A stretch of DNA of 35,391 nt, taken from the IMG/VR virus record IMGVR_UViG_2718218309_000002. One strand, 5' to 3'. The notes under the pieces are model-generated. The model was not told the DNA's origin, searched no databases, and saw only the letters and a program-made list of their open reading frames with translations. This document shows, in pieces, positions 901-28,345 of the stretch (position 1 is the stretch's first letter; the number at the start of each line of letters is the position of its first letter). Position numbers and translations under genes: made by a program. Source of the stretch: a virus (taxonomy: Duplodnaviria > Heunggongvirae > Uroviricota > Caudoviricetes).

Positions 901-1315
901 GATCGTATGTGCCTTTATGATTGGTCTGTAGATAGTGTAGAGCAGAAAACAAAAGGTGGAGTCAGAACAGGATGAAAGTCGGAGGATAAAAAGTCAGTTC
1001 AAGTATGGAGGATTCAGTGGTTACCACCAGGAGCTTGCAATGGGGACAGCGAATACTAACGGCTGCCACCGATAAATTTCAAAAAAGAGCATATGCCTAA
1101 TATTCAACCAAACAGTGGCATCTTAAATATACTATTCCAAATATATTAAAGCCCCCATGGAGTTACCCTGAAGGGCCTCAATGTCCGTAATTCCTACTTA
1201 TGTAGGAAATGTTGTACAGAACATTTATTATAATCCTATTCAATTATAATAATCATGCCATTATTATATTTAAACACTAGAGAGTGTCGTTGGTATTTAA
1301 TGGGGGAAGGTGAGA

Positions 1316-1632
1316 TGAAAAAGATAGCTGCTATATCATTAATTAGTATTTTTATTATGTCTGGTTGTGCTGTGCATAATGATGAGACAAGTATCGGTAA
1401 ATTTGGTCTTGCATATAAAAGTAATATTCAGCGTAAACTCGATAACCAATACTACACCGAAGCCGAAGCTTCTTTAGCCAGGGGCAGAATATCTGGTGCA
1501 GAAAATATAGTAAAAAATGATGCAGCCCATTTCTGTGTTACTCAGGGCAAAAAAATGCAGATAGTTGACCTGAAGACAGAAGGTGCAGGATTACATGGCG
1601 TCGCTCGTCTGACATTCAAATGTGGAGAGTGA
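1316..1632 (+). CDS. yegR: Putative lipoprotein YegR (host gene, 105 aa)
   Basis: ORF-track frame 1255..1632; internal ATG at 1316 preceded by GGAAGGTGAG; MKKIAAISLISIFIMSGC is a signal peptide with a lipobox; synteny with yegS. Confidence 0.8.
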
Positions 1633-1790
1633 GAATATTTTTTGGTAAGCGTCAAACATGCGCGTTCTGGTTGTGCTTAGCCGGAACCTGTGCGAGCACG
1701 ATGCCGTTACGTGAAAGGCATCGTGCTATGAAGGGAGATTCTATCGATGTGGTCAATGGAAGACGGTGACCAGGGATAGGGCTTATGCAT

Positions 1791-1817
1791 AAAAAATAAG
1801 CCCGTGTAAGGGAGATT
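1791..1817. repeat. attL: 27-bp P2-type att core AAAAAATAAGCCCGTGTAAGGGAGATT
   Basis: Exact 27-bp direct repeat of the sequence at 33859..33885; lies immediately upstream of int, as expected for a P2 prophage left junction. Confidence 0.85.
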
Positions 1818-1896
1818 TAGGGTGTCACCAGTAGGGGCTTTCAACGGTACAATGCGGGTTTGAGCGGCATAAATTACCACTGAAAGCCCTTACACG

Positions 1897-2910
1897 TTAC
1901 TCTACTGTGGACACTGTGTGGACACTCTCGGCCTCAGTACCACCTCTTAGCGGATTAAGAGAAATGGCGTCCTGAAGGTACTCTGGCGCAAAATGAGCGT
2001 AAACCATAGTTTGCTCAATCCGCGTGTGACCTAGTATCCGTTGTAGCGTGATAATACTTCCTCCATTAATCATGAAATGAGTGGCAAAGCTGTGCCTTAG
2101 TGCATGTGTGGCTTGCCCCATTGGCAAATCCGGTTTTATTGCTTTCATTGTTCGTCTGAAGCGAGGGTAATCAGCATCAGGGAATAAAAAACCTCGTTTG
2201 TTATCCGCGATCATTTTGGCAACAGCCTCTGAGATCGGGACGGTGCGTGGTTTGTTTGTTTTCGTTTTAACAAACGTGACGCGGTTATGGATGATATTTT
2301 CTGCTTTCAAACGAGCTGCTTCTCCCCAACGTGCTCCAGTACTCAGGCAAAGAATCGCAATCTTTTTGTTGTCGCCGTCAAGAGCAGCAAGCAGTAAGGC
2401 AATTTCTTCCTGCGTGAGATAGCCTGTGTCTGGTTTTTCCTCCTTAAGCCTTTTTGTCCCTCTGATAGGGTGCTCACCAAAGAATAACTCCGCTTCAATC
2501 AGGGCTGTAAACATGCCGCTAATACATGTTAAATCACGATTGATACTCGAAGGTTTAATACCCTGACTTCTTCGGGTGGCGCAGTACTGGCTGATAAGCG
2601 ATTTCGTAATTTGAAATGCGCATGGGTCATTCGTTATTTTTGTGAAGATTTCAATTTTTCCAAGATTAGATTTCCCATGCTCTTCGTGTTTACCCTTTAA
2701 ATCCCACCAGATCTGTGTCAGCTCCGACAGACGTCGCTTGTCTGTTGGTTTTGATAGCCATTCTTTATTGTGGTGGTTGTACAACGTGTATTTCTCGAAA
2801 GCGACAGCTTCGCTTTTCTTATCAAACTTCCTACGGATGCGTTTTCCATTACGTCCAGTAGGGCGGATGTCCACTTCATATCGACCATCATCGAGTTTTT
2901 TGATTGCCAT
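1897..2910 (-). CDS. int: Tyrosine integrase (P2 Int, 337 aa)
   Basis: 337-aa ORF next to attL; C-terminal HALRHSFATH...RILGHTRIEQTMVYAH carries the tyrosine recombinase R-H-R-Y signature; length and position match P2 Int. Confidence 0.96.
   Translation of the reverse strand: MAIKKLDDGRYEVDIRPTGRNGKRIRRKFDKKSEAVAFEKYTLYNHHNKEWLSKPTDKRRLSELTQIWWDLKGKHEEHGKSNLGKIEIFTKITNDPCAFQITKSLISQYCATRRSQGIKPSSINRDLTCISGMFTALIEAELFFGEHPIRGTKRLKEEKPDTGYLTQEEIALLLAALDGDNKKIAILCLSTGARWGEAARLKAENIIHNRVTFVKTKTNKPRTVPISEAVAKMIADNKRGFLFPDADYPRFRRTMKAIKPDLPMGQATHALRHSFATHFMINGGSIITLQRILGHTRIEQTMVYAHFAPEYLQDAISLNPLRGGTEAESVHTVSTVE
1906..1925. promoter_or_regulatory. Tandem TGTGGACAC direct repeats, putative Int arm-type binding sites (P' arm)
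   Basis: Two copies of TGTGGACAC at 1906..1914 and 1917..1925, 11 bp apart, just inside attL; a related TGTGGACGTGACC lies in the P arm near 33811. Confidence 0.4.
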
Positions 2911-3025
2911 CAGAAAACCCTCCGAGTGGTGTGTTTTTTTGCGACTACTAATCGCTTTTTTCGTGGTGGCTGAAATTTAGCCACCAATAGTAGGCACTTG
3001 TGATGAATATATTCACGATGAATTG

Positions 3026-3325
3026 TTAACCAGTCTTTTGACCGGAGTGGGGCGACGTTGTTTCGTTTTGCCCAAAGTGTGCGAGAGCGGGCGCAATTTG
3101 CCCGGACTCAGGAGCGATCTGATTGGTCATGAACCATAAAGTGTATTTGGTGAATTGTGGGGTCTGCAGGATGTTCATCATGACATCTGTTGGAGGTGTT
3201 GAACGACCACTTTCATAGTAACTCAGCGTGCCATACGGAACCCCTGTTAAATCAGCAAGTTGTTGTCTGCTCAAATACTCTGATTTTCGCATTAAGACTA
3301 TCTTCTCGCTTATCGTGTTTGACAT
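3026..3325 (-). CDS. C: Immunity repressor C (99 aa, HTH)
   Basis: 99-aa protein with HTH segment LSRQQLADLTGVPYGTLSYYESG; divergent from cox; matches P2 C in length and position. Confidence 0.93.
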   Translation of the reverse strand: MSNTISEKIVLMRKSEYLSRQQLADLTGVPYGTLSYYESGRSTPPTDVMMNILQTPQFTKYTLWFMTNQIAPESGQIAPALAHFGQNETTSPHSGQKTG

Positions 3326-3329
3326 GGTG

Positions 3330-3358
3330 TTTAGATCTCAATAGTATTTAGTTTAGAT
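3330..3358. promoter_or_regulatory. Putative C operator: TTTAGAT direct repeats 22 bp apart in the C/cox divergent promoter region
   Basis: TTTAGAT at 3330..3336 and 3352..3358, two helical turns apart, in the 114-bp C-cox intergenic region; P2 C is known to bind direct repeats. Confidence 0.4.
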
Positions 3359-3439
3359 GTAGATTGTTTAGTGCTTGGATGTGGGCACTAAAAGGCATTA
3401 TAAGACATTAAACGCAATTCATGAGGGCTAGAGGACGAC

Positions 3440-3715
3440 ATGAGCAAGCAAGTAACACTCATGACTGATGCGATTCCTTATCAGGAGTTCGCAAAACTAA
3501 TAGGAAAATCGACAGGAGCGGTTCGTCGGATGATCGATAAAGGAAAGCTGCCTGTAATTGATATGACCGATCCACAATCAGCTTCAGGTCGTGCAGGTGA
3601 ATATTGGGTGTACCTTCCGGCATGGAATAACGGACTAAAACTGGCTTATGAAAGCCGACCTAAAGAGATTCGTGACGGCTGGTTGATGTGGTTAGGTCTC
3701 GGTGAACCACGTTAA
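3440..3715 (+). CDS. cox: Excisionase / directionality factor Cox (91 aa)
   Basis: 91-aa ORF divergent from C, first gene of the early operon; length and position match P2 Cox. Confidence 0.93.
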   Translation: MSKQVTLMTDAIPYQEFAKLIGKSTGAVRRMIDKGKLPVIDMTDPQSASGRAGEYWVYLPAWNNGLKLAYESRPKEIRDGWLMWLGLGEPR

Positions 3716-5207: not shown

Positions 5208-5479
5208 GTATTCGTATTGAAATTGGCGAACGTTATGTCGTTACCAGTGACAGCTTTCAGTTTATTCTCCACGAGAAAAAGAGAGCTGAAAGCGGTAAAA
5301 ACGCCGGTCAGGAATGGCTGGCGGTGGTTGGTTATTACCCGAAATTAAGCCAGCTCGTTTCCGGCCTGATGCATCACGATATTCTGACCGGAAGCGCAAA
5401 GTCTTTTGCTGATTTAAACGCGCAGGTTGAGCAACTCAGCAAGCGTTGTTCAGAGGCTTTTGGCTCATATGGCCGTTAA
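5204..5479 (+). CDS. Hypothetical early protein (P2 orf83-like, 91 aa)
   Basis: ATG at 5204 overlapping the orf82 stop (ATGA). Confidence 0.7.
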   Translation: MSIRIEIGERYVVTSDSFQFILHEKKRAESGKNAGQEWLAVVGYYPKLSQLVSGLMHHDILTGSAKSFADLNAQVEQLSKRCSEAFGSYGR

Positions 5480-7736
5480 AGCCTCCGGGCGTTTTGTCCC
5501 TCCGTCAGCATTTGCCGCAGGCACCGGTAAGACGTTTACCGGTGCTTATGCATGGAACGCGCCACGCGAGGCCGTCGGGCGCGAAAGACCCCTTACACGT
5601 GACGAGATGCGTCAGGTGCAAGGTGTTTTATCCACGATTAACCGCCTGCCTTACTTTTTGCGCTCGCTGTTTACTTCACGCTATGACTACATCCGGCGCA
5701 ATAAAAGCCCGGTGCACGGGTTTTATTTCCTCACATCCACTTTTCAGCGTCGTTTATGGCCGCGCATTGAGCGTGTGAATCAGCGCCATGAAATGAACAC
5801 CGACGCGTCGTTGCTGTTTCTGGCAGAGCGTGATCACTATGCGCGCCTGCCGGGAATGAATGACAAGGAGCTGAAAAAGTTTGCCGCCCGTATCTCATCG
5901 CAGCTTTTCATGATGTATGAGGAACTCAGCGATGCCTGGGTGGATGCGCATGGCGAAAAAGAATCACTGTTTACGGATGAGGCTCAGGATCACCTGTATG
6001 GTCATGTTGCTGGCGCTGCACGAGCTTTCAATATTTCCCCTCTCTACTGGAAAAAATACCGTAAAAGACAGATGACCACGAGGCAGGCATATTCTGCCAT
6101 TGCCCGTCTGTTTAACGATGAGTGGTGGACTCATCAGCTTAAAGGCCAGCGTATGCGCTGGCATGAAGCGTTACTGATAGCTGTCGGGGAGGTCAATAAA
6201 GACCGTTCTCCTTATGCCAGTAAACACGCCATTCGTGATGTGCGTGCGCGCCGCCAGGCAAATCTGGAATTTCTTAAATCGTGTGACCTTGAAAACAGGG
6301 AAACCGGCGAGCGCATCGACCTTATCAGTAAGGTGATGGGCAGTATTTCTAATCCTGAAATTCGCCGGATGGAGCTGATGAACACCATTGCCGGTATTGA
6401 GCGTTACGCCGCTGCAGAGGGTGATGTGGGGATGTTTATCACGCTGACCGCGCCGTCAAAGTATCACCCGACACGTCAGGTAGGAAAAGGCGAAAGTAAA
6501 ACCGTGCAGCTTAACCACGGCTGGAACGATGAGGCATTTAATCCAAAGGATGCGCAGCGTTATCTCTGCCGTATCTGGAGCCTGATGCGCACGGCATTCA
6601 AGGATAATGATTTACAGGTCTACGGTTTGCGTGTCGTCGAGCCACACCACGACGGAACGCCGCACTGGCATATGATGCTTTTTTGTAATTCACGCCAGCG
6701 TAACCAGATTATCGAAATCATGCGTCGCTATGCGCTCAAAGAGGATGGCGACGAAAGAGGAGCCGCGCGAAACCGTTTTCAGGCAAAACACCTTAACCGG
6801 GGCGGTGCTGCGGGATATATCGCGAAATACATTTCAAAAAACATCGACGGCTATGCACTGGATGGTCAGCTCGATAACGACACCGGCAGGCCGCTGAAAG
6901 ACACTGCAGCGGCTGTTACCGCATGGGCGTCAACGTGGCGCATCCCGCAATTTAAAACGGTTGGCCTACCGACAATGGGGGCTTACCGTGAACTACGCAA
7001 ATTGCCGCGCGGCGTCAGCATTGCTGATGAGTTTGACGAGCGCGTCGAGGCTGCACGCGCCGCCGCAGACAGTGGTGATTTTGCGTTGTATATCAGCGCG
7101 CAGGGTGGGGCAAATGTCCCGCGCGATTGTCAGACTGTCAGAGTCGCCCGTAGCCCGTCGGATGAAGTTAACGAGTACGAGGAAGAAGTCGAGAGAGTGG
7201 TCGGCATTTACGCGCCGCATCTCGGCGCGCGTCATATTCATATCACCAGAACGACGGACTGGCGCATTGTGCCGAAAGTTCCGGTCGTTGAGCCTTTGAC
7301 TTTAAAAAGCGGCATCGCCGCGCCTCGGAGTCCTGTCAATAACTGTGGAAGGCTCGCCCGAGGTATCGTTCCAGTTATGGCCCCTACGCCATCTGAGGAT
7401 GCCTCAGCGGTGTTAAATCTTGTTGATGATGGGGTTGTCGTATGGGGTGATCCTGAAGCCATGAGGGTGCTCAGGGATGTGCTAAAACATGACGTGCCGC
7501 AACCAAATCGACACCAGCGGAGCAGGGAACCACTAAAACAGCAGGAAATCGCGCTATCAGCCAGACTGACCAAAGCAGAGCGGGAGCAGATACCGCACAT
7601 CCGTTATGACTTAGCACAGCATAATATCACACCGAAACGTTGGGAACTTGAGGCGCTGGCGCGAGGGGCGACTGTCATTTATGATGGAAAAACATTTACA
7701 TATCAGGTTGTAAATGAATGGGAAAATGAATTTTAA
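5469..7736 (+). CDS. A: Rolling-circle replication initiator gpA (about 755 aa)
   Basis: ORF-track frame 5427..7736 starts at TTG; the first ATG at 5469 gives MAVKASGRF; an HUH-type motif PHHDGTPHWHMMLF and a tyrosine-rich region YIAKYISKN are present. Confidence 0.9.
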   Translation: MAVKASGRFVPPSAFAAGTGKTFTGAYAWNAPREAVGRERPLTRDEMRQVQGVLSTINRLPYFLRSLFTSRYDYIRRNKSPVHGFYFLTSTFQRRLWPRIERVNQRHEMNTDASLLFLAERDHYARLPGMNDKELKKFAARISSQLFMMYEELSDAWVDAHGEKESLFTDEAQDHLYGHVAGAARAFNISPLYWKKYRKRQMTTRQAYSAIARLFNDEWWTHQLKGQRMRWHEALLIAVGEVNKDRSPYASKHAIRDVRARRQANLEFLKSCDLENRETGERIDLISKVMGSISNPEIRRMELMNTIAGIERYAAAEGDVGMFITLTAPSKYHPTRQVGKGESKTVQLNHGWNDEAFNPKDAQRYLCRIWSLMRTAFKDNDLQVYGLRVVEPHHDGTPHWHMMLFCNSRQRNQIIEIMRRYALKEDGDERGAARNRFQAKHLNRGGAAGYIAKYISKNIDGYALDGQLDNDTGRPLKDTAAAVTAWASTWRIPQFKTVGLPTMGAYRELRKLPRGVSIADEFDERVEAARAAADSGDFALYISAQGGANVPRDCQTVRVARSPSDEVNEYEEEVERVVGIYAPHLGARHIHITRTTDWRIVPKVPVVEPLTLKSGIAAPRSPVNNCGRLARGIVPVMAPTPSEDASAVLNLVDDGVVVWGDPEAMRVLRDVLKHDVPQPNRHQRSREPLKQQEIALSARLTKAEREQIPHIRYDLAQHNITPKRWELEALARGATVIYDGKTFTYQVVNEWENEF

Positions 7737-8140: not shown

Positions 8141-11071
8141 TCAGGAATGAATAACCTTTCTAACCTGGAAGCTATCATTATGAGATGGGATTATTTCTCC
8201 TTTGAAAATAAGCCCTTCTCTCAAATACTGCCTGCTTTCAGAGGAAAATATTGTTACGTGGAAAAATATATCTACAGGGAGTTTGTCACAACTACAGAAT
8301 CCATATCCTCGTTGTGGAAAGTATCTTTTAATGATGCACTCCCCACTGATTGCTTCAACGTTTGGTGATTCTTTGCTATAAATATGACTAATCACCATGC
8401 CTATCTCTGTTCTGGAAATGTCACACATCAAAGTGTCGCCATCAACGACGGAATCTATATTATATTGTTTTAATAAATTTTGAGAAATATCGATGGGCCC
8501 ATCAATGTCATTAACAATTAGATATCCAAGGCCACGCTCAACATCATAGCTATCTACAATTGCCCTAGCATGTTTTTTTACGATGCCTAGTTTATAAATG
8601 TCGCCAAGAGTATTCTCTGGTGGTTCGCTTTCATCATATCTATTTTGTTTAAAGACTAATAGTCGATTGATTAACTCTTTTTGGCATTCATATTTTTCAT
8701 GTGTTATCTCATTGCTAATATAAACAGAGTCTTCAGATATTAAATACTCTAGAAATAGATTTCTAATATTGTACATTTTAGAGATGTGATTGCCTTTGGA
8801 AGCATAAGTATCTTTTATTTTATTTGCGATAGAACTGTCGGTGATCGCTGTTGTTAATGCCATTTGATAGAAGTAAACGCTATTACGAGATGCGAGCTTT
8901 AAATGTGCTCTACCTTTATAAGAAATTGCTAATTTCTGATTTGATGAGAGTGTAGTTGATGACATATCATAGGGTTCTATTAATTTTGCCATAATTAAGC
9001 TCTCTAAAGCTTTATCGACAGCTAGTTCTGTTGCTCCTAAAGCATCGAAATAACTGCTGATAGATTGTACGCTTAAATGTTTATCCTCAATGCTTTTTCC
9101 AGGCACTTGAATGGAGTTAAGTAAAGTAAGGATTCTTAACGCTTGCAATGGTGATTGTCTTACTTGACTATCAACTTGGAATATAGGATATATTTCTGGG
9201 ATGTCACCATTTTTATAAACTTCATAATCACCGCGAATTAACGCGTCCATGAAGCGAGTGAAATTTATCGAAGGAAGTTCACCACTAATATAAGATTTTA
9301 TCAAGTCCTCTATTTTAATTGCAGGGGATGTGATTATTCTTTTTGATAATAATAATGTTCTGCGTATATTATAGTTGGCAAGCTCACCAAGAGTTTGTGA
9401 TGTGTAATCATGATTCACAAAAATATTTTCAATCACTTTAGAAAATTTATTTATATCTTCAATGGAAATTTTAATACCTTTTGATAAAAGATAGCTTTTC
9501 TTTTGTTCATTAGTATCTTTATTGTTAAGTTTTGATGTGATGAAGTTAATTCGCTTTCTGAATACTTCCCGTGGGGACGGAGTTGGTAGAAAAAATGATT
9601 TTGATTGATAGATGCTAAATATATCTGTCTTGGAGAAAATCCAAGCTGATTTATCTGTCACGGGGAAAATAACAAGGCAGTGTTTAATGTTTTTTTTAAT
9701 TGAATTGCTAAACTGGAAGACTTTTGTTTTAAAGTCAAGTGTGAATTCATCAGTGTTATCTACGACTATTATTGGAAGCATTTTTCTATTGCTTACAACA
9801 TTGTGAAGGATGCGTTTTAAATATCCCTCTCGATCATTTTCAACAGCTTCATCTAAATAACGTCCAAATTTTTCCTTGAACTCATCTTTACTTCTATTGT
9901 AAAGAGCTGCGTCCGCTCCTCTTGATTTTCTTTTATATTCATTGTGATAAAGTCCAAGGAGATCATTCCATTCAGGTACGCCGTCCTTGTAAAGCTGGGT
10001 CTCAAGGGTTTTTATTATTTCTTCAGTCATCCAATCTAGAACTGTATCTTCTCGCCCTGTAGCTTCTAAGCAGTTTATTTTAATAAGTAAGCATCGTTCT
10101 CTAATCGTTTTATTAAGGGTGCGACTGAAAAAACGGTCTAAAAAAGTCGACTTCCCAGAGCCAGTTGGTCCAACTATAAAAACGGATTGTTCTGACTCTA
10201 GATTTATATCAGACTCAATATTTGACATTATTAAATCAGAAAGCTCATCTCCAACTTTATTTTTATTATAGTTTATATTTGACAAGACGCTAGTTGTTAT
10301 TTTCTCAAGTGAATAGTCTGCAATTCTACTTTCATATGATTCAACAAAACATTCCATCATCATCTCGTCATCTCCCTCTAATCGAGAGAAGAAACTAGAG
10401 AATACCCTTTCTAAATCATAAGCCATATCACTTTTTCTTGTTATTTTTATATCAGATCCAATGATTGGGGCTGTTAATTCATTATTTAACAATAAACGTT
10501 TGTTGTGAATATCATCAAATATAGTGTTATACAATCTTTTGTTAAATGCTTCTTTTGATAATAATTCATAGAACACGCTAAATGATTTTTCGACTGCCTC
10601 GATACTAGGGAATACAATTGCCTCTTTACTTTTGAAGTTTTCACCAGGTATAAATGTTTTGAATATTACCCAACATAACCCATCAGTTAGAATAGAAAGA
10701 GGTATGCCATTTGGCGATGCGTAGCTAAATGCCTGGTTAATTCCTGTCTCGCATTTCTTTAAAGCAGAACCTGATATTTTTAAATGTCTTACAGTGTTTT
10801 TTTGAGCTGTTTCAACTTCTAAAATGCCGATTTTTTTGGCTTCGACAACAAAGGAGGGATGATCATCAGTGGAAAGAATGTAGTCAGAGAATCCATTGTC
10901 ATGGGCAGTTTCACAAGCAATATCAGAGTGCATCCATCCAAGCGTCTCTGTTAATATGCGAGTTATGATTTGAATTTTAGCATCTTCTTCTGATTGGATT
11001 TTTGTGATGTTATGATTAACATCACTCATAATTTTTAAGAATTTTTTTTCGCTGGAATCTAAACTAGTCAT
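8141..11071 (-). CDS. Candidate anti-phage defence protein (976 aa): N-terminal PD-(D/E)xK nuclease-like domain, central P-loop NTPase, C-terminal cold-shock-like OB domain
   Basis: Single uninterrupted ORF in the A-to-cos slot. Residues 55-80 GFSDYILSTDDHPSFVVEAKKIG fit a PD-(D/E)xK / HsdR-N-like nuclease core; residues 301-309 GPTGSGKST form a Walker A (nt 10145..10171); residues 434-442 IIVVDNTDE are a candidate Walker B; residues about 908-976 (nt 8144..8350) resemble a cold-shock domain. Strongly AT-rich relative to the flanking phage genes. Confidence 0.85.
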   Translation of the reverse strand: MTSLDSSEKKFLKIMSDVNHNITKIQSEEDAKIQIITRILTETLGWMHSDIACETAHDNGFSDYILSTDDHPSFVVEAKKIGILEVETAQKNTVRHLKISGSALKKCETGINQAFSYASPNGIPLSILTDGLCWVIFKTFIPGENFKSKEAIVFPSIEAVEKSFSVFYELLSKEAFNKRLYNTIFDDIHNKRLLLNNELTAPIIGSDIKITRKSDMAYDLERVFSSFFSRLEGDDEMMMECFVESYESRIADYSLEKITTSVLSNINYNKNKVGDELSDLIMSNIESDINLESEQSVFIVGPTGSGKSTFLDRFFSRTLNKTIRERCLLIKINCLEATGREDTVLDWMTEEIIKTLETQLYKDGVPEWNDLLGLYHNEYKRKSRGADAALYNRSKDEFKEKFGRYLDEAVENDREGYLKRILHNVVSNRKMLPIIVVDNTDEFTLDFKTKVFQFSNSIKKNIKHCLVIFPVTDKSAWIFSKTDIFSIYQSKSFFLPTPSPREVFRKRINFITSKLNNKDTNEQKKSYLLSKGIKISIEDINKFSKVIENIFVNHDYTSQTLGELANYNIRRTLLLSKRIITSPAIKIEDLIKSYISGELPSINFTRFMDALIRGDYEVYKNGDIPEIYPIFQVDSQVRQSPLQALRILTLLNSIQVPGKSIEDKHLSVQSISSYFDALGATELAVDKALESLIMAKLIEPYDMSSTTLSSNQKLAISYKGRAHLKLASRNSVYFYQMALTTAITDSSIANKIKDTYASKGNHISKMYNIRNLFLEYLISEDSVYISNEITHEKYECQKELINRLLVFKQNRYDESEPPENTLGDIYKLGIVKKHARAIVDSYDVERGLGYLIVNDIDGPIDISQNLLKQYNIDSVVDGDTLMCDISRTEIGMVISHIYSKESPNVEAISGECIIKRYFPQRGYGFCSCDKLPVDIFFHVTIFSSESRQYLREGLIFKGEIIPSHNDSFQVRKVIHS

Positions 11072-23143: not shown

Positions 23144-25189
23144 ATGAGCACAAAATTCAGAACCGTTATCACCACTGCCGGTGCAGCAAAGCTGGCAGCG
23201 GCAACCGCACCGGGAGGGCGGAAGGTCAACATTACCACGATGGCCGTCGGGGATGGCGGTGGTAAATTGCCTGTCCCGGATGCCGGACAGACCGGGCTTA
23301 TCCATGAAGTCTGGCGACATGCGCTGAACAAAATCAGCCAGGACAAACGAAACAGTAATTATATTATCGCAGAGCTGGTTATTCCGCCGGAGGTGGGCGG
23401 TTTCTGGATGCGTGAGCTTGGCCTGTACGATGATGCGGGAACGTTAATTGCTGTGGCGAACATGGCCGAAAGTTATAAGCCAGCTCTTGCCGAAGGTTCA
23501 GGGCGTTCGCAGACCTGCCGCATGGTCATCATCGTCAGCAGTGTGGCCTCAGTGGAGCTGACCATTGACACCACAACGGTGATGGCGACGCAGGATTACG
23601 TTGATGACAAAATTGCAGAACATGAACAGTCACGACGTCACCCGGACGCCTCGCTGACAGCAAAAGGTTTTACTCAGTTAAGCAGTGCGACCAACAGCAC
23701 GTCTGAAACACTGGCCGCAACGCCGAAAGCGGTAAAGGCCGCGTATGACCTGGCTAACGGGAAATATACCGCACAGGACGCCACCACAGCGCGAAAAGGC
23801 CTTGTCCAGCTTAGTAGCGCCACCAACAGCACGTCTGAAACGCTCGCCGCAACACCAAAAGCCGTTAAGACGGTAATGGATGAAACGAACAAAAAAGCGC
23901 CATTAAACAGCCCTGCACTGACCGGAACGCCAACGACGCCAACTGCGCGACAGGGAACGAATAATACTCAGATCGCAAACACGGCTTTCGTTATGGCCGC
24001 GATTGCCGCCCTTGTAGACTCGTCGCCTGACGCACTGAATACGCTGAACGAGCTGGCGGCGGCGCTGGGCAATGACCCGAATTTTGCTACCACCATGACT
24101 AATGCGCTTGCGGGTAAGCAACCGAAAGATGCTACCCTGACGGCGTTGGCGGGGCTTGCTACTGCGGCAGACAGGTTTCCGTATTTTACGGGGAATGATG
24201 TTGCCAGCCTGGCAACCCTGACAAAAGTCGGACGGGATATTCTGGCTAAAGCGACCGTTACTGCCGTTATCGAATACCTCGGTTTGCAGGAAACGGTAAA
24301 CAGGGCCAGGAACGCGGTGCAAAAGAATGGCGATACCTTGTCCGGTGGGCTTACTTTTGAAAACGACTCAATCCTTGCCTGGATTCGAAATACTGACTGG
24401 GCAAAGATTGGATTAAAAAATGATGCCGACAGCGATACTGATTCATATATGTGGTTTGAAACAGGTGACAACGGCAATGAATATTTCAAATGGAGAAGTC
24501 GCCAGAGCACCACAACAAAAGACCTGATGAATCTTAAATGGGATGCTCTGTATGTTCTTGTTAAAGCCCTTTTCAGCAGTGAAGTAAAAATATCTACAGT
24601 CAATGCACTGAGGATATTTAATTCATCTTTTGGGGCTATTTTTCGCCGTTCTGAAGAAAACCTGTATATCATCCCTACACGAGAAAATGAGGGTGAAAAT
24701 GGAGATATTGGGCCATTAAGGCCATTCGGCATCAACTTAAGAACAGGAGTTGTGTCTGTTGGTAATGGTGCCAGGATTGATGGCGGGCTGGCACTTGGCA
24801 CGAATAACGCGTTGGGTGGGAACTCTATTGTTCTTGGTGATAACGATACCGGATTTAAACAAAATGGCGATGGTAATCTGGATGTTTATGCTAATAACGT
24901 CCATGTTATGCGCTTTGTTTCCGGAAGCATTCAAAGTAATAAGACCATAAATATTACGGGGCGTGTTAATCCCTCGGATTACGGTAACTTTGATTCCCGC
25001 TATGTGAGAGATATCAGACTTGGTACACGTGTTGTGCAGACCATGCAGAAAGGCGTGATGTATGAAAAGTCAGGCCATGCAATTACGGGGCTTGGTATTG
25101 TCGGTGAAGTTGATGGCGATGATCCGGCAGTATTCAGACCAATACAAAAATACATCAATGGCACATGGTATAACGTTGCGCAGGTGTAA
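23144..25189 (+). CDS. H: Tail fibre protein gpH (681 aa), mosaic
   Basis: N-terminal MSTKFRTVITTAGAAKLAAA region is P2 gpH-like; internal duplicated motif QLSSATNSTSETLAATPKAVK; AT-rich C-terminal part from about 24300. Confidence 0.92.
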   Translation: MSTKFRTVITTAGAAKLAAATAPGGRKVNITTMAVGDGGGKLPVPDAGQTGLIHEVWRHALNKISQDKRNSNYIIAELVIPPEVGGFWMRELGLYDDAGTLIAVANMAESYKPALAEGSGRSQTCRMVIIVSSVASVELTIDTTTVMATQDYVDDKIAEHEQSRRHPDASLTAKGFTQLSSATNSTSETLAATPKAVKAAYDLANGKYTAQDATTARKGLVQLSSATNSTSETLAATPKAVKTVMDETNKKAPLNSPALTGTPTTPTARQGTNNTQIANTAFVMAAIAALVDSSPDALNTLNELAAALGNDPNFATTMTNALAGKQPKDATLTALAGLATAADRFPYFTGNDVASLATLTKVGRDILAKATVTAVIEYLGLQETVNRARNAVQKNGDTLSGGLTFENDSILAWIRNTDWAKIGLKNDADSDTDSYMWFETGDNGNEYFKWRSRQSTTTKDLMNLKWDALYVLVKALFSSEVKISTVNALRIFNSSFGAIFRRSEENLYIIPTRENEGENGDIGPLRPFGINLRTGVVSVGNGARIDGGLALGTNNALGGNSIVLGDNDTGFKQNGDGNLDVYANNVHVMRFVSGSIQSNKTINITGRVNPSDYGNFDSRYVRDIRLGTRVVQTMQKGVMYEKSGHAITGLGIVGEVDGDDPAVFRPIQKYINGTWYNVAQV

Positions 25190-25192
25190 ATT

Positions 25193-25720
25193 ATGCAGCA
25201 TTTAAAGAACATTAAGTCAGGTAATCCCAAAACAAAAGAACAATATCAGCTAACAAAGAATTTTGATGTTATCTGGTTATGGTCCGAAGACGGAAAAAAC
25301 TGGTATGAAGAAGTAAGTAATTTTCAGGAAGACACAATAAAGATTGTTTACGATGAAAATAATATTATTGTCGCCATCACCAGAGATGCTTCAACGCTTA
25401 ATCCTGAAGGTTTTAGCGTCGTTGAGGTTCCTGATATTACTGCCAACCGGCGTGCTGATGACTCTGGTAAATGGATGTTTAAGGATGGTGCCGTGATTAA
25501 GCGGATTTATACGGCAGACGAACAGCAGCAACTGGCGGAATTACATAAGGCAGCTTTGCTTTCCGAAGCTGAATCCGTGATTTTGCCGCTGGAGCGCGCG
25601 GTCAGGCTGAATATGGCAACAGATGAGGAGCGTAGTCGACTGGAGGCATGGGAACGCTATAGTGTTCTGGTCAGTCGTGTGGATCCTGCAAATCCTGAAT
25701 GGCCGGAAATGCCGCAATAA
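25193..25720 (+). CDS. G: Tail fibre assembly chaperone gpG (175 aa)
   Basis: 175 aa immediately after H; AT-rich N-terminal half and GC-richer C-terminal half. Confidence 0.9.
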
Positions 25721-25935
25721 GTTGTATGAGCTCTAGTGTGGGCTTACATATCTATGGCACAGAGTAAAGCCTAATCTGACAGTCCACTCTGTGCCAGAGG
25801 TGGGCATTGCTGATGTCATAAAATATTATGCCAGCAGCCGTCTTAGGGGAGTGTTTACATTTCAATGATCGGGTATGATCTCGGCATGTTAATGGTTTAT
25901 TACTAAATGCTTGCGCCTATCTTTATGGAGGAGTA

Positions 25936-26835
25936 ATGAGTGGTATTCGTATAACTCAGGCTATTGATAACAATCAGATTTTAGTAAATGTAAATACTTT
26001 TAATTATAGTGTTAATCCCTATCCACTCAAATGTCCTGACCCAAATTGCTCTGCTCATTTGGTGTATGTCAAAAGCCATATTCGTCGGAGTTTTAATAAA
26101 ACCTTGCATATCCCCGCCTTCTTTAGACTGGAAAAAAATTTCACGCATGACAAATTATGTCAGTATGGAACTTCAGGATTGAATACAATTTATGCAAGTG
26201 ATTCCAGTCATGATATCAGCCGTGCGCTTGCCACAGGTAATAATATATTCCGTATACATATACTCGATGAAGATGATATCTCTAAATTAAGCAGAAAAGC
26301 TGCAGCTATGCAGGCAAATCCACCTTCTGATACTACAGACCGCGTTTATGTCAAGAGAGGTCGGAAAGCCCCCTATGTGAAGAACATGGATAGCTTACGG
26401 GAGATCTATGAATATGGAAAAGCTCACCCCAACAAGAGAAACAGCATAAAAATTGTTACTGGAACAAGTACTGTAACGTGGTCTGATTTTTTCTATGAAA
26501 CAACGCAGTTAGAACGATTGTCAACTTACCTCCAGAAAGTAAAAATAGCTCAGGTTGCTGTAATTATGAAAGTGCATGTGGCGAGAATCCCTATGGCGAA
26601 ATTTAATTATCGACACTTCATTGAAGGTTCGCCAATGAGGATAAAAGGGGGCTTTAATATATATCCTACGATTCAATTAGGAAATGTTACTCCAAAATTA
26701 TTTCCGTTGAGTAGCATTGTCATGGTACTCGGTAAATTTACTATTCCAACAAATAGAAAAATGATAATGGATCCAACATTTGAGCGTGAAGTCAGAACCA
26801 TAGTTTCTAGTGAAGAGCAAGTGCTAATTCTTTGA
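25936..26835 (+). CDS. Hypothetical cargo protein in the Z/fun slot (299 aa), candidate defence or exclusion factor
   Basis: ATG at 25936 preceded by GGAGGAG; AT-rich; lies between G and FI where P2 carries Z/fun; no recognisable catalytic motif or transmembrane segment; contains a CPDPNCSAH element. Confidence 0.75.
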   Translation: MSGIRITQAIDNNQILVNVNTFNYSVNPYPLKCPDPNCSAHLVYVKSHIRRSFNKTLHIPAFFRLEKNFTHDKLCQYGTSGLNTIYASDSSHDISRALATGNNIFRIHILDEDDISKLSRKAAAMQANPPSDTTDRVYVKRGRKAPYVKNMDSLREIYEYGKAHPNKRNSIKIVTGTSTVTWSDFFYETTQLERLSTYLQKVKIAQVAVIMKVHVARIPMAKFNYRHFIEGSPMRIKGGFNIYPTIQLGNVTPKLFPLSSIVMVLGKFTIPTNRKMIMDPTFEREVRTIVSSEEQVLIL

Positions 26836-27029
26836 AATCAAGAGGATTTGGCTCGGATGATTATGTGCGGCTTATAACCATAACGTAATGAGCGGATTTT
26901 TCTACTGCTTTTTATCATTTTGGTTAACTAAAACTAACCTCTGCTCCTCGCTCAAAGCAGACTGTCAGATTTGATAGCGTTTTGGCTATGTAAATTGTCA
27001 GTCGGAAAATGAGTGAGTACAAATCAGGA

Positions 27030-27058
27030 CAGGCGGGCGAATTGCCTGCCTTTTCTTT
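27030..27058 (+). terminator. Weak hairpin plus T-run downstream of the Z/fun-slot gene
   Basis: CAGGC-GGGCGAATT-GCCTG followed by CCTTTTCTTT; only a 5-bp stem. Confidence 0.25.
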
Positions 27059-27154: not shown

Positions 27155-28345
27155 ATGAGTGACTATCATCACGGCGTGCAGGTGCTGGAGATTAACGACG
27201 GCACCCGCGTCATTTCCACCGTATCCACCGCCATTGTTGGCATGGTCTGCACGGCCAGCGATGCGGATGCGGAAATCTTCCCCCTCAATAAACCGGTGCT
27301 GATTACCAATGTGCAGAGTGCAATTGCAAAGGCCGGTAAAAAAGGCACGCTGGCGGCGTCGTTGCAGGCTATCGCCGACCAGTCAAAACCGGTCACCGTT
27401 GTCGTACGTGTGGAAGACGGCACCGGCGAAGACGAAGAAACGAAACTCGCGCAGACCGTTTCCAATATCATCGGCACCACTGACGAAAACGGTCAGTACA
27501 CCGGACTGAAGGCCCTGCTGGCGGCAGAGTCGGTAACCGGTGTTAAACCGCGTATTCTCGGCGTGCCGGGACTGGACACCAAAGAGGTGGCTGTTGCACT
27601 GGCATCAGTCTGTCAGAAGCTGCGCGCTTTCGGGTATATCAGCGCATGGGGCTGTAAAACCATTTCCGAGGTGAAAGCCTACCGCCAGAATTTCAGCCAG
27701 CGTGAGCTGATGGTCATCTGGCCGGATTTCCTCGCATGGGATACGGTCGCCAGTACCACCGCCACCGCGTATGCCACCGCCCGTGCGCTGGGTCTGCGCG
27801 CTAAAATGGACCAGGAGCAGGGCTGGCATAAAACGCTGTCCAACGTCGGGGTGAACGGTGTTACCGGCATCAGCGCGTCCGTATTCTGGGATTTGCAGGA
27901 GTCCGGCACCGATGCTGACCTGCTTAACGAGTCAGGCGTCACAACGCTGATTCGCCGTGACGGTTTCCGCTTCTGGGGTAACCGTACCTGCTCTGATGAT
28001 CCGCTGTTCCTCTTTGAAAACTACACCCGCACCGCGCAGGTGCTGGCCGACACGATGGCTGAGGCGCACATGTGGGCGGTGGACAAGCCCATCACCGCAA
28101 CGCTGATTCGCGACATCGTTGACGGCATCAATGCCAAATTCCGTGAGCTGAAAACAAACGGCTATATCGTGGATGCGACCTGCTGGTTCAGCGAAGAGTC
28201 CAACGATGCGGAAACCCTCAAGGCCGGAAAACTGTATATCGACTACGACTATACCCCGGTGCCTCCTCTTGAAAATCTGACCCTGCGCCAGCGCATTACC
28301 GATAAATACCTGGCAAATCTGGTCACTTCGGTTAACAGCAATTAA
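27155..28345 (+). CDS. FI: Tail sheath protein gpFI (396 aa)
   Basis: 396 aa, P2 gpFI position and length. Confidence 0.96.
   Translation: MSDYHHGVQVLEINDGTRVISTVSTAIVGMVCTASDADAEIFPLNKPVLITNVQSAIAKAGKKGTLAASLQAIADQSKPVTVVVRVEDGTGEDEETKLAQTVSNIIGTTDENGQYTGLKALLAAESVTGVKPRILGVPGLDTKEVAVALASVCQKLRAFGYISAWGCKTISEVKAYRQNFSQRELMVIWPDFLAWDTVASTTATAYATARALGLRAKMDQEQGWHKTLSNVGVNGVTGISASVFWDLQESGTDADLLNESGVTTLIRRDGFRFWGNRTCSDDPLFLFENYTRTAQVLADTMAEAHMWAVDKPITATLIRDIVDGINAKFRELKTNGYIVDATCWFSEESNDAETLKAGKLYIDYDYTPVPPLENLTLRQRITDKYLANLVTSVNSN

What the first reader, a model, noticed from the sequence alone, without database searches (positions are those of the whole stretch)
25936..26835. AT-rich 299-aa gene of unknown function in the Z/fun cargo slot between G and FI
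The gene sits in the second known P2 cargo position, between tail-fibre assembly gene G and sheath gene FI, with its own ribosome-binding site and a long AT-rich leader. The protein has no motif I can assign; a CPDPNCSAH element could be part of a metal-binding site, and there is an acidic ILDEDDISKL stretch. It may be an orthologue of P2 Z/fun (the T5-exclusion gene, itself mechanistically uncharacterised) or a different cargo gene; I cannot tell from memory.
Basis: partly seen in the sequence, partly recalled or inferred. Interest (0 to 1): 0.6.

Follow-up and report, generated by a model that had tools for sequence, protein, structure and literature searches.

The report
Unstudied zinc/OB-fold prophage cargo gene
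The gene is real and is a swappable cargo gene of a P2-like prophage; it is not P2's Fun(Z) but phage Wφ orf44, the founder of an unnamed family of zinc-binding, OB-fold, probably nucleic-acid-binding proteins that sit in phage hotspots and bacterial defence islands, which makes it a reasonable but untested anti-phage candidate.

The parts
25936..26835 (+). CDS of 299 aa plus stop. It is identical to phage Wφ orf44/gp44 and a member of PHROG 7195.
   Evidence: ORF list; 100% tblastn identity to AY135739 gp44; PHROG 7195 full-length match, E=6e-218; dN/dS 0.07-0.22.
25936..26265 (+). N-terminal module (residues 1-110), a beta-rich domain carrying the CCHC metal site. The ligand codons are C33 at 26032-26034, C38 at 26047-26049, H71 at 26146-26148 and C75 at 26158-26160. 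It also carries two 'FRL' strands with conserved R64 and R106. This is the most conserved part of the family.
   Evidence: Invariant columns in the 120-sequence alignment A2; conservation table; secondary structure of the model; regional pairwise identity 0.28.
26266..26544 (+). Middle alpha/beta module (residues 111-203) with near-invariant Y147, W182 and F185.
26545..26832 (+). C-terminal beta-barrel (residues 204-299), assigned as the OB fold. It is the most variable part of the family and ends in near-invariant Q295.
   Evidence: OB-fold matches for the model. Five-strand pattern E204-220/226-231/241-248/261-269/283-290. An 'HP(I/V)C(I/V)xGxV' OB beta-1 pattern in distant members and regional identity 0.20. 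The assignment of the OB match to this third is inferred, because the fold tools give no aligned ranges.
25927..25933 (+). Shine-Dalgarno sequence GGAGGAG
   Evidence: Read directly from the sequence.
25801..25829 (+). Candidate sigma-70 promoter (TGGGCA-17-TATTAT) at the left cassette junction
   Evidence: Consensus scan, 9 of 12 matches. A promoter is annotated at a comparable position in the P2-EC67 Z-region record. There is no expression evidence.
25806..26940 (.). Variable cassette, the 'Z/fun' hotspot insert of about 1.13 kb at about 37% GC
   Evidence: Alignments with P2 and P2-EC67 lose similarity after about 25805 and regain it from about 26940. Other Peduoviruses match only the flanks. 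The same cassette occurs in 116 of 5,426 complete E. coli genomes at >=99% identity.
25773..25797 (.). Left arm of a backbone inverted repeat flanking the cassette. It overlaps a local hairpin (25752-25765 / 25786-25799).
   Evidence: Repeats I1 and I3. The arm is conserved in P2 and P2-EC67 and annotated 'left inverted repeat' in AJ512685.
26947..26971 (.). Right arm of the backbone inverted repeat (25 nt, 80% complementary to the left arm)
   Evidence: conserved in P2 and P2-EC67; annotated 'right inverted repeat' in AJ512685.
27031..27051 (+). Terminator-like GC-rich hairpin followed by TTTTCTTT, in the conserved backbone upstream of the F-operon promoter region
   Evidence: Terminator scan; conserved in P2 and P2-EC67.

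Best explanation
The gene is the Wφ orf44-type cargo of the P2 'Z/fun' hotspot and is not a Fun(Z) orthologue. It encodes a soluble, basic, 34-kDa protein with three parts: an N-terminal CCHC zinc module, a conserved alpha/beta core, and a fast-evolving C-terminal OB-fold domain. It travels as a single gene between accessory hotspots of temperate phages, other mobile elements and chromosomal defence islands. I think it is most likely a stand-alone lysogenic-conversion protein that excludes other phages or mobile elements. It would work by binding a single-stranded nucleic acid (phage ssDNA replication or recombination intermediates, or a tRNA-like RNA) rather than by catalysis, with the variable OB domain setting specificity. 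Shown here: the identity, the slot, the non-homology to Fun(Z), the invariant CCHC, the OB-fold match, the purifying selection, the solo mobility and the neighbourhoods. Inferred: zinc binding, nucleic-acid binding, expression in the lysogen, the anti-phage role and its mechanism.
Against: There is no phenotype and no match to any PADLOC defence model for this protein or its family. No effector or enzymatic domain was recognised, so how binding alone would stop a phage is unexplained. The conserved N-terminal 200 residues have no structural analogue and could hide an activity. The sampled contexts were chosen for long contigs and are not a random sample. Some contexts are not defence-like: colicin/pyocin loci in Proteus, and a relaxase/ParB mobile element. 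The fold tools did not report aligned ranges, so placing the OB fold in the C-terminal third is an inference. I found no mention of the gene in the defence literature I could search. One likely relevant paper (Brenes & Laub 2025) is not held in the library.
Confidence: 0.45

Rival explanations
1. It benefits the mobile element rather than the host: an ssDNA-binding establishment or counter-defence factor. For example, it could protect or mask ssDNA intermediates, or titrate a host sensor that monitors SSB or ssDNA. Phages and conjugative elements would carry it for their own spread.
For: OB-fold, SSB-like and RPA-like structural matches. One distant member lies directly beside a relaxase and a ParB_N gene on a mobile element. 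Copies sit in phage accessory regions that also host anti-defence genes. The protein has no effector domain.
Against: Several copies are chromosomal and beside restriction, Gabija, retron and Abi genes with no phage or plasmid replication context. That is typical of defence genes and unusual for anti-defence genes. The gene lies in the late/tail region of P2 rather than in an early-expressed region. The protein is basic, so it is not a DNA mimic. It lacks the bacterial SSB sequence signature (no Pfam hit).
Confidence: 0.2
2. It is a defence or abortive-infection effector with a cryptic enzymatic activity (nuclease, tRNA- or nucleotide-modifying) in the conserved N-terminal 200 residues. The OB domain would serve only as the targeting module.
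For: The N-terminal two thirds are the best conserved part and have no structural analogue. Near-invariant R106, Y147 and W182, with frequent S90 and S/T150, could form a phosphate- or nucleotide-binding pocket. The best Foldseek matches are tRNA anticodon-binding OB domains, and tRNA is a common defence target (PMC12409363, listed).
Against: There are no conserved acidic residues and no conserved His, Lys or Cys apart from the four metal ligands. No Pfam, PDB or PADLOC similarity to any nuclease or transferase was found. No antitoxin-like partner or conserved neighbour exists.
Confidence: 0.15
3. It is a sequence-specific DNA- or RNA-binding regulator that changes host physiology (lysogenic conversion unrelated to phage exclusion).
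For: It has a zinc module plus a basic nucleic-acid-binding fold. The Z-region ORF of P2-EC67 is annotated as a putative lysogenic conversion protein.
Against: There is no HTH or other known regulator domain. The gene moves alone between distant hosts (Enterobacterales, Vibrio, Aeromonas, Bacillota) without any conserved flanking target DNA, which is hard to reconcile with a host-specific regulon. The defence-island neighbourhoods also argue against it.
Confidence: 0.1
4. It is an orthologue or diverged form of P2 Fun(Z), the T5-exclusion gene.
For: Only the shared position between G and FI.
Against: Fun(Z) is 528 aa on the opposite strand. BLASTP gives E=3.6 and the profile comparison gives probability 0.2%. 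P2 itself is absent from the tblastn hits.
Confidence: 0.01
5. It is a virion or tail-fibre accessory protein, as its position inside the tail gene cluster might suggest.
For: Position between tail-fibre assembly gene G and the sheath gene, in the same orientation as the late genes.
Against: It is absent from most Peduoviruses, which carry unrelated genes or genes on the opposite strand in this slot. Homologues occur in chromosomal islands and in a lambdoid phage's nin-like region with no tail genes nearby. The fold is OB plus zinc, with no match to structural proteins.
Confidence: 0.02

Closest known systems
Phage Wφ orf44 / gp44 (AAN28239.1; RefSeq WP_000014361.1; PHROG 7195)
   Same: 100% identical protein in the same slot between G and FI, so this is the same gene.
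   Different: Nothing differs. The gene has been deposited since the Wφ genome record but carries no functional annotation, and I found no study of it.
P2 Fun(Z) (NP_046777.1), the T5-exclusion / FUdR-sensitivity gene
   Same: It occupies the same hotspot between G and FI, and it is also an AT-rich non-essential cargo gene of unknown mechanism.
   Different: It is 528 aa against 299 aa, on the opposite strand, with no sequence or profile similarity. Whether the two share a phenotype is unknown.
Zinc-bearing OB-fold ssDNA binders: MCM N-terminal domain, MCM10 internal domain, RPA. T4 gp32 is added from memory only.
   Different: Only about 100-140 of 299 residues superpose (TM-score normalised to the query <=0.26). 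There is no sequence similarity. Here the metal ligands lie about 130-170 residues upstream of the inferred OB barrel rather than within or next to it. There is no acidic C-terminal tail and no helicase or other partner domain. gp32 was not among the listed top matches.
Anticodon-binding OB domain of class IIb aminoacyl-tRNA synthetases (AspRS/AsnRS/LysRS; Pfam tRNA_anti)
   Different: There is no Pfam tRNA_anti hit and no synthetase catalytic domain. Sequence identity is 10-18%.
P2 Tin and other single-gene prophage exclusion proteins (functional analogy only)
   Same: A single cargo gene of a P2-type prophage hotspot with no recognisable enzymatic domain. By established knowledge, Tin blocks T-even phages through their ssDNA-binding protein gp32, so interference with ssDNA metabolism has a precedent in this phage group.
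   Different: No homology was tested or claimed. Tin sits in the other hotspot (old/tin, between gpA and the portal gene). The analogy is a lead, not evidence.

Membership tests
P2 Fun(Z) | Detectable sequence or profile homology to NP_046777.1 | tested here: not met
   BLASTP E=3.6; hhalign probability 0.2%.
P2 Fun(Z) | Gene of about 528 aa transcribed leftward (antisense to the late genes) between G and FI | tested here: not met
   The position matches, but this gene is 299 aa on the + strand, the same strand as the late genes.
P2 Fun(Z) | Blocks T5 growth and confers FUdR sensitivity | not testable with these tools
   This requires a phage challenge experiment.
PHROG 7195 / Wφ gp44 family | Full-length match to the family profile | tested here: met
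   E=5.8e-218 over residues 1-299 of 299; 118 of 120 wider homologues also match it.
OB-fold nucleic-acid-binding superfamily | Five-stranded beta-barrel that superposes on known OB domains | tested here: met
OB-fold nucleic-acid-binding superfamily | Actual binding of ssDNA or RNA | not testable with these tools
   Only indirect evidence: pI 9.8 and conserved Arg and aromatic residues.
Bacterial/phage SSB family (Pfam SSB) | Match to the SSB profile | tested here: not met
   No Pfam hit for the protein or for any of 120 relatives.
Bacterial/phage SSB family (Pfam SSB) | Acidic C-terminal protein-interaction tip | tested here: not met
   The protein ends ...SSEEQVLIL, inside the predicted barrel, with no disordered acidic tail.
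Cys/His zinc-binding module (CCHC) | Four conserved metal-ligand residues with knuckle-like spacing (C-x4-C ... H-x3-C) | tested here: met
   C33, C38, H71 and C75 are the only invariant columns among 120 sequences at 21% mean column identity.
Cys/His zinc-binding module (CCHC) | Metal actually bound, with the four ligands adjacent in 3D | not testable with these tools
Known anti-phage defence systems (PADLOC-DB v2.0.0) | Match to any defence-protein model | tested here: not met
   No hit for the protein. Only scattered single-member chance hits appear across 120 relatives. DefenseFinder could not be run.
Metal-dependent nucleases (PD-(D/E)xK, HNH/His-Me) | Conserved catalytic Asp/Glu/Lys or His residues | tested here: not met
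   No acidic position is conserved above about 75%, and the only conserved His is ligand H71. No Pfam or PDB sequence match.
P2 'Z/fun' hotspot cargo | Variable insert bounded by conserved backbone sequences between G and FI, with alternative unrelated genes in other Peduoviruses | tested here: met
   Junctions at about 25805 and about 26940. Flanking inverted repeats. Alternative cargos in P2, P2-EC67, P24E6b and L-413C.

The most novel reading that the evidence does not exclude
PHROG 7195 would be a new, enzyme-free class of single-protein immunity. A conserved, structurally novel CCHC core of about 200 aa, coupled to a rapidly diversifying OB domain, would directly recognise a phage single-stranded nucleic acid (or phage tRNA) and block replication or translation by sequestration. 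The gene would be exchanged as a solo unit between hotspots of P2-like and lambdoid phages and defence islands from Enterobacterales to Bacillota.
Probability: 0.25. Interest if true: 0.7.

Novelty: new variant of a known kind. Interest (0 to 1): 0.45.

Why it matters
The G-FI slot of P2 has been known as a cargo hotspot for decades, yet its contents, including Fun(Z) itself, remain mechanistically obscure. This cassette is present in about 2% of complete E. coli genomes. It belongs to a coherent, unnamed family of about 150 clusters that no domain or defence database covers. If it protects against phages, it would add a defence protein with no recognisable effector, built from a zinc module and an OB fold, and would give a simple single-gene model for defence by nucleic-acid binding. 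If instead it helps mobile elements, it would be an unusual SSB-like establishment or counter-defence factor found inside defence islands. Either result is reachable with a one-gene cloning experiment.

Tried and rejected
- Fun(Z) orthology was rejected.
- Hidden homology to the similar-sized P2-EC67 ORF1 in the same slot was rejected (hhalign probability 0.7%).
- Pfam, NCBIfam and PADLOC searches on the protein, and Pfam and PADLOC on 120 relatives, gave nothing consistent.
- PDB sequence searches with the shallow and the deep profile gave nothing significant.
- The first structure prediction, from the 13-sequence alignment, was unusable (pLDDT 46). Only the 120-sequence alignment gave a confident model.
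- Domain fusions in unusually long relatives gave no information. One NeuB/SAF case looks like a chimeric gene call.
- I looked for a conserved partner gene, a conserved leader or 3' region, or an ncRNA. None was found.
- Scans of species-representative genomes with the family alignments or single proteins returned nothing usable.
- The word-indexed profile search added only three remote relatives.
- Literature searches for the gene, its accession and its architecture found no study. Nilsson et al. 2004 and Brenes & Laub 2025 are not held in the library.
- A tail or virion role and a membrane role were rejected. Homologues occur outside phages, and the protein has no hydrophobic segment (max Kyte-Doolittle 1.23).

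Full report
**Observation**

A GGAGGAG ribosome-binding site sits at 25927-25933. The gene has 37% GC, inside a trough of 35-40% GC between tail genes at 55-60%. At that composition an open run of 299 codons has a chance of about 1e-9 (my arithmetic). Upstream is the tail-fibre assembly gene G (25193-25720) and downstream the sheath gene FI (27155-28345). The window holds a complete P2-like prophage: integrase at 1897-2910, gpA at 5427-7736, and portal/terminase from 11472. It lies between a yegS-like gene and a U32-peptidase gene.

**Identity**

The protein is 100% identical to gp44 (orf44) of Escherichia phage Wφ. It is 99.7-100% identical to unnamed genes of Yersinia phage HQ103 and of one 'Peduovirus P2' record, and these are the only phage records with a match. 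It matches PHROG 7195 ('unknown function') end to end. It matches nothing in Pfam, NCBIfam or PADLOC.

P2 Fun(Z) is a 528-aa protein encoded on the opposite strand of the same slot. It shows no similarity to gp44 by BLASTP (E=3.6) or by profile comparison (probability 0.2%). So this is not a Fun(Z) orthologue. It is one of several unrelated alternative cargos.

**The slot**

Alignment with P2 and P2-EC67 places the junctions of the variable segment at about 25805 and about 26940. The conserved backbone on either side carries a 25-nt inverted repeat (25773-25797 and 26947-26971). This corresponds to the 'left/right inverted repeats' annotated in the P2-EC67 Z-region record.

Other Peduoviruses carry different genes here:
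- Fun(Z), 528 aa, minus strand.
- P2-EC67 ORF1, 303 aa, with no homology to gp44.
- A 197-aa ORF in P24E6b.
- A 259-aa minus-strand ORF in L-413C.

The gp44 cassette occurs in 116 of 5,426 complete E. coli genomes. It is always chromosomal, at >=99% identity, and annotated 'hypothetical protein'. It sits in the same slot in the two records inspected, and one of those copies is split by an IS3 element. In IMG/VR contigs the identical cassette sits next to tail-fibre H alleles that are only 32-95% identical to the window's. Recombination therefore shuffles this neighbourhood.

No + strand terminator was found between G and the ORF. A conserved terminator-like hairpin follows at 27031-27051. The gene could therefore be read from the sigma-70-like site at 25801-25829 and also by read-through of the late V operon. 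Both are inferences.

**The family**

The word-indexed search found only 12 clusters at >=65% identity in Enterobacterales. The exhaustive profile search found 151 clusters at 50% identity, mostly 295-330 aa. Named members come from E. coli, Serratia, Morganella, Proteus, Leclercia, Photorhabdus, Yersinia, Aeromonas, Plesiomonas, several Vibrio species, Photobacterium and the Bacillota genus Rossellomorea. All are annotated 'hypothetical'.

In a 120-sequence alignment with 21% mean column identity, the only invariant residues are C33, C38, H71 and C75. R106, Y147, W182, F185 and Q295 are at >=90%. The site is C-x4-C ... H-x3-C, and the His of 'SAH' is not a conserved ligand. The acidic ILDEDD stretch is conserved only in the close subfamily.

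Of the 120 members, 118 map to PHROG 7195. None maps consistently to any Pfam, PADLOC or PDB sequence family. Orthologues in four other genera give dN/dS of 0.07-0.22.

**Structure**

With the deep alignment AlphaFold gives pLDDT 93.2 and pTM 0.75. The shallow alignment had failed.

I place the OB fold in residues 204-299 for three reasons:
- That segment has the beta1-3 / short helix / beta4-5 pattern.
- In distant relatives it begins 'HP(I/V)C(I/V)xGxV', the typical first OB strand.
- It is the least conserved third. Pairwise identity is 0.20 there, against 0.23 in the middle and 0.28 at the N-terminus.

The tools give no aligned ranges, so this assignment is an inference. It follows that the conserved N-terminal 200 residues (CCHC module plus alpha/beta core) have no recognisable structural relative.

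The protein is basic (pI 9.8, family median 9.1) and has no hydrophobic segment. Its conserved residues are Arg/Lys (5, 50, 64, 106) and aromatics (77, 138, 147, 182, 186). It has no conserved acidic residues and no spare His or Cys. This is the profile of a binder, not of a metal-dependent nuclease.

**Context**

The gene travels alone. Upstream and downstream DNA is unrelated between genera beyond a few bases around the ORF. There is no Rfam match, no conserved neighbouring gene and no informative domain fusion.

Of 11 non-P2 loci with enough flanking DNA, six have PADLOC-verified defence genes within 10 kb:
- Type I REase (E=0) in a Serratia integrase island.
- Retron I-B RT (3e-91) and ATPase-Toprim (2e-225) at a prophage end in Morganella.
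- Gabija GajA/GajB (6e-262 / 3e-288) plus a NERD-helicase in Photorhabdus.
- AbiTii (3.5e-47) 75 nt upstream in a metagenome contig.
- Retron XI RT-protease (1e-178) with RelE/HTH nearby.
- AIPR fragments, an AbiO/Nhi-like helicase and a PtuB-like HNH in Rossellomorea. The PADLOC scores here are weaker.

The other five loci are an AlpA/FRG island in Leclercia, colicin/pyocin loci in Proteus, a relaxase/ParB mobile element, a prophage end by an integrase, and the nin-like accessory region of a lambdoid phage between GIY-YIG and HNH genes, where the copy is 88% identical.

For scale, 2% of all E. coli genes and 17% of known defence genes lie within 10 genes of a known defence gene (PMC13092281). 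My sample is small and biased to long contigs, so this is supportive evidence, not proof.

**Interpretation**

The best-supported reading is a stand-alone, horizontally mobile, zinc-containing OB-fold protein that binds nucleic acid and is carried as lysogenic-conversion cargo. I consider an anti-phage or anti-mobile-element exclusion role the most likely function (about 0.45). It would act by binding ssDNA or a tRNA-like RNA, and the variable OB domain would set specificity.

The main rivals are:
- An SSB-like establishment or counter-defence factor that benefits the mobile element (0.2).
- A cryptic enzyme in the unmatched N-terminal core (0.15).
- A regulator unrelated to defence (0.1).

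Fun(Z) orthology and a virion role are effectively excluded.

**Literature**

The Z/fun hotspot is well known (bioRxiv 10.1101/2024.10.15.618418). PMC13586616 also reports defence systems within the P2 tail-gene region. The large P2 hotspot screen concentrated on the old/tin locus (PMC9122126). I found no mention of Wφ orf44, its RefSeq accession or its sequence in the searchable literature or in the DefensePredictor supplements. Some supplement tables were truncated, and two relevant papers are not held.

**Verdict**

The gene itself is already in the databases as an uncharacterised ORF. What this analysis adds is the family definition, the invariant CCHC site, the OB-fold assignment, the solo mobility and the defence-island association. 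It is a sound, cheap-to-test candidate among many, so I rate it of moderate interest.

Noticed in passing
window 8141-11071 (- strand): The other classical P2 hotspot, between gpA and the portal gene (the old/tin position), carries a single very AT-rich (about 32% GC) 976-aa gene. Its product has a P-loop NTPase region at residues about 290-460 (Pfam AAA_22 3e-07, AAA_16, AAA_29) and only weak PADLOC hits (mad8 3e-05, mad3). It looks like a STAND/NLR-like candidate defence protein that current models do not classify.
   Followed up: partly
window 1201-1800 (ORF 1255-1632, +): An AT-rich stretch (39% GC, GC skew +0.24) with a 125-aa ORF lies between the host yegS-like gene and the prophage integrase. 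This is the att-integrase position that PMC13586616 lists as a minor P2 defence hotspot. The ORF has no Pfam or PADLOC hit.
   Followed up: partly
window 24250-25450 (3' part of H and 5' part of G): GC drops to 36-45% across the C-terminal part of tail-fibre gene H and into G, before the cassette starts. In IMG/VR contigs carrying the identical gp44 cassette, the H allele is only 32-95% identical to the window's. The receptor-binding module is therefore swapped independently of the neighbouring cargo.
   Followed up: partly
L022 (E. coli GN03139, NZ_CP147532.1) 1375-3610: In one of 116 E. coli genomes the gp44 gene is split by an IS3-family transposase into 114-aa and 175-aa annotated fragments, a rare natural knockout.
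   Followed up: no
L017 / L018 8045-10997: In a metagenome contig the 40%-identical homologue lies between an AbiTii gene (75-nt gap) and an unannotated 333-aa gene (93-nt gap), all on one strand. This may be an operon. The 333-aa protein has no PADLOC hit.
   Followed up: partly
L004 / L005 7900-8977: In Morganella a gene-free gap of 1,077 nt separates the homologue from the type I-B retron RT. It may hold the retron ncRNA (msr/msd) on the opposite strand. I did not examine it.
   Followed up: no
window 25752-25799: A 14-bp hairpin (93% complementary, 20-nt loop) lies in the conserved backbone just after the G stop codon and overlaps the left arm of the cassette-flanking inverted repeat. It has no T-run, so it is not a typical terminator. 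It may instead be a recombination or RNA-processing site.
   Followed up: no
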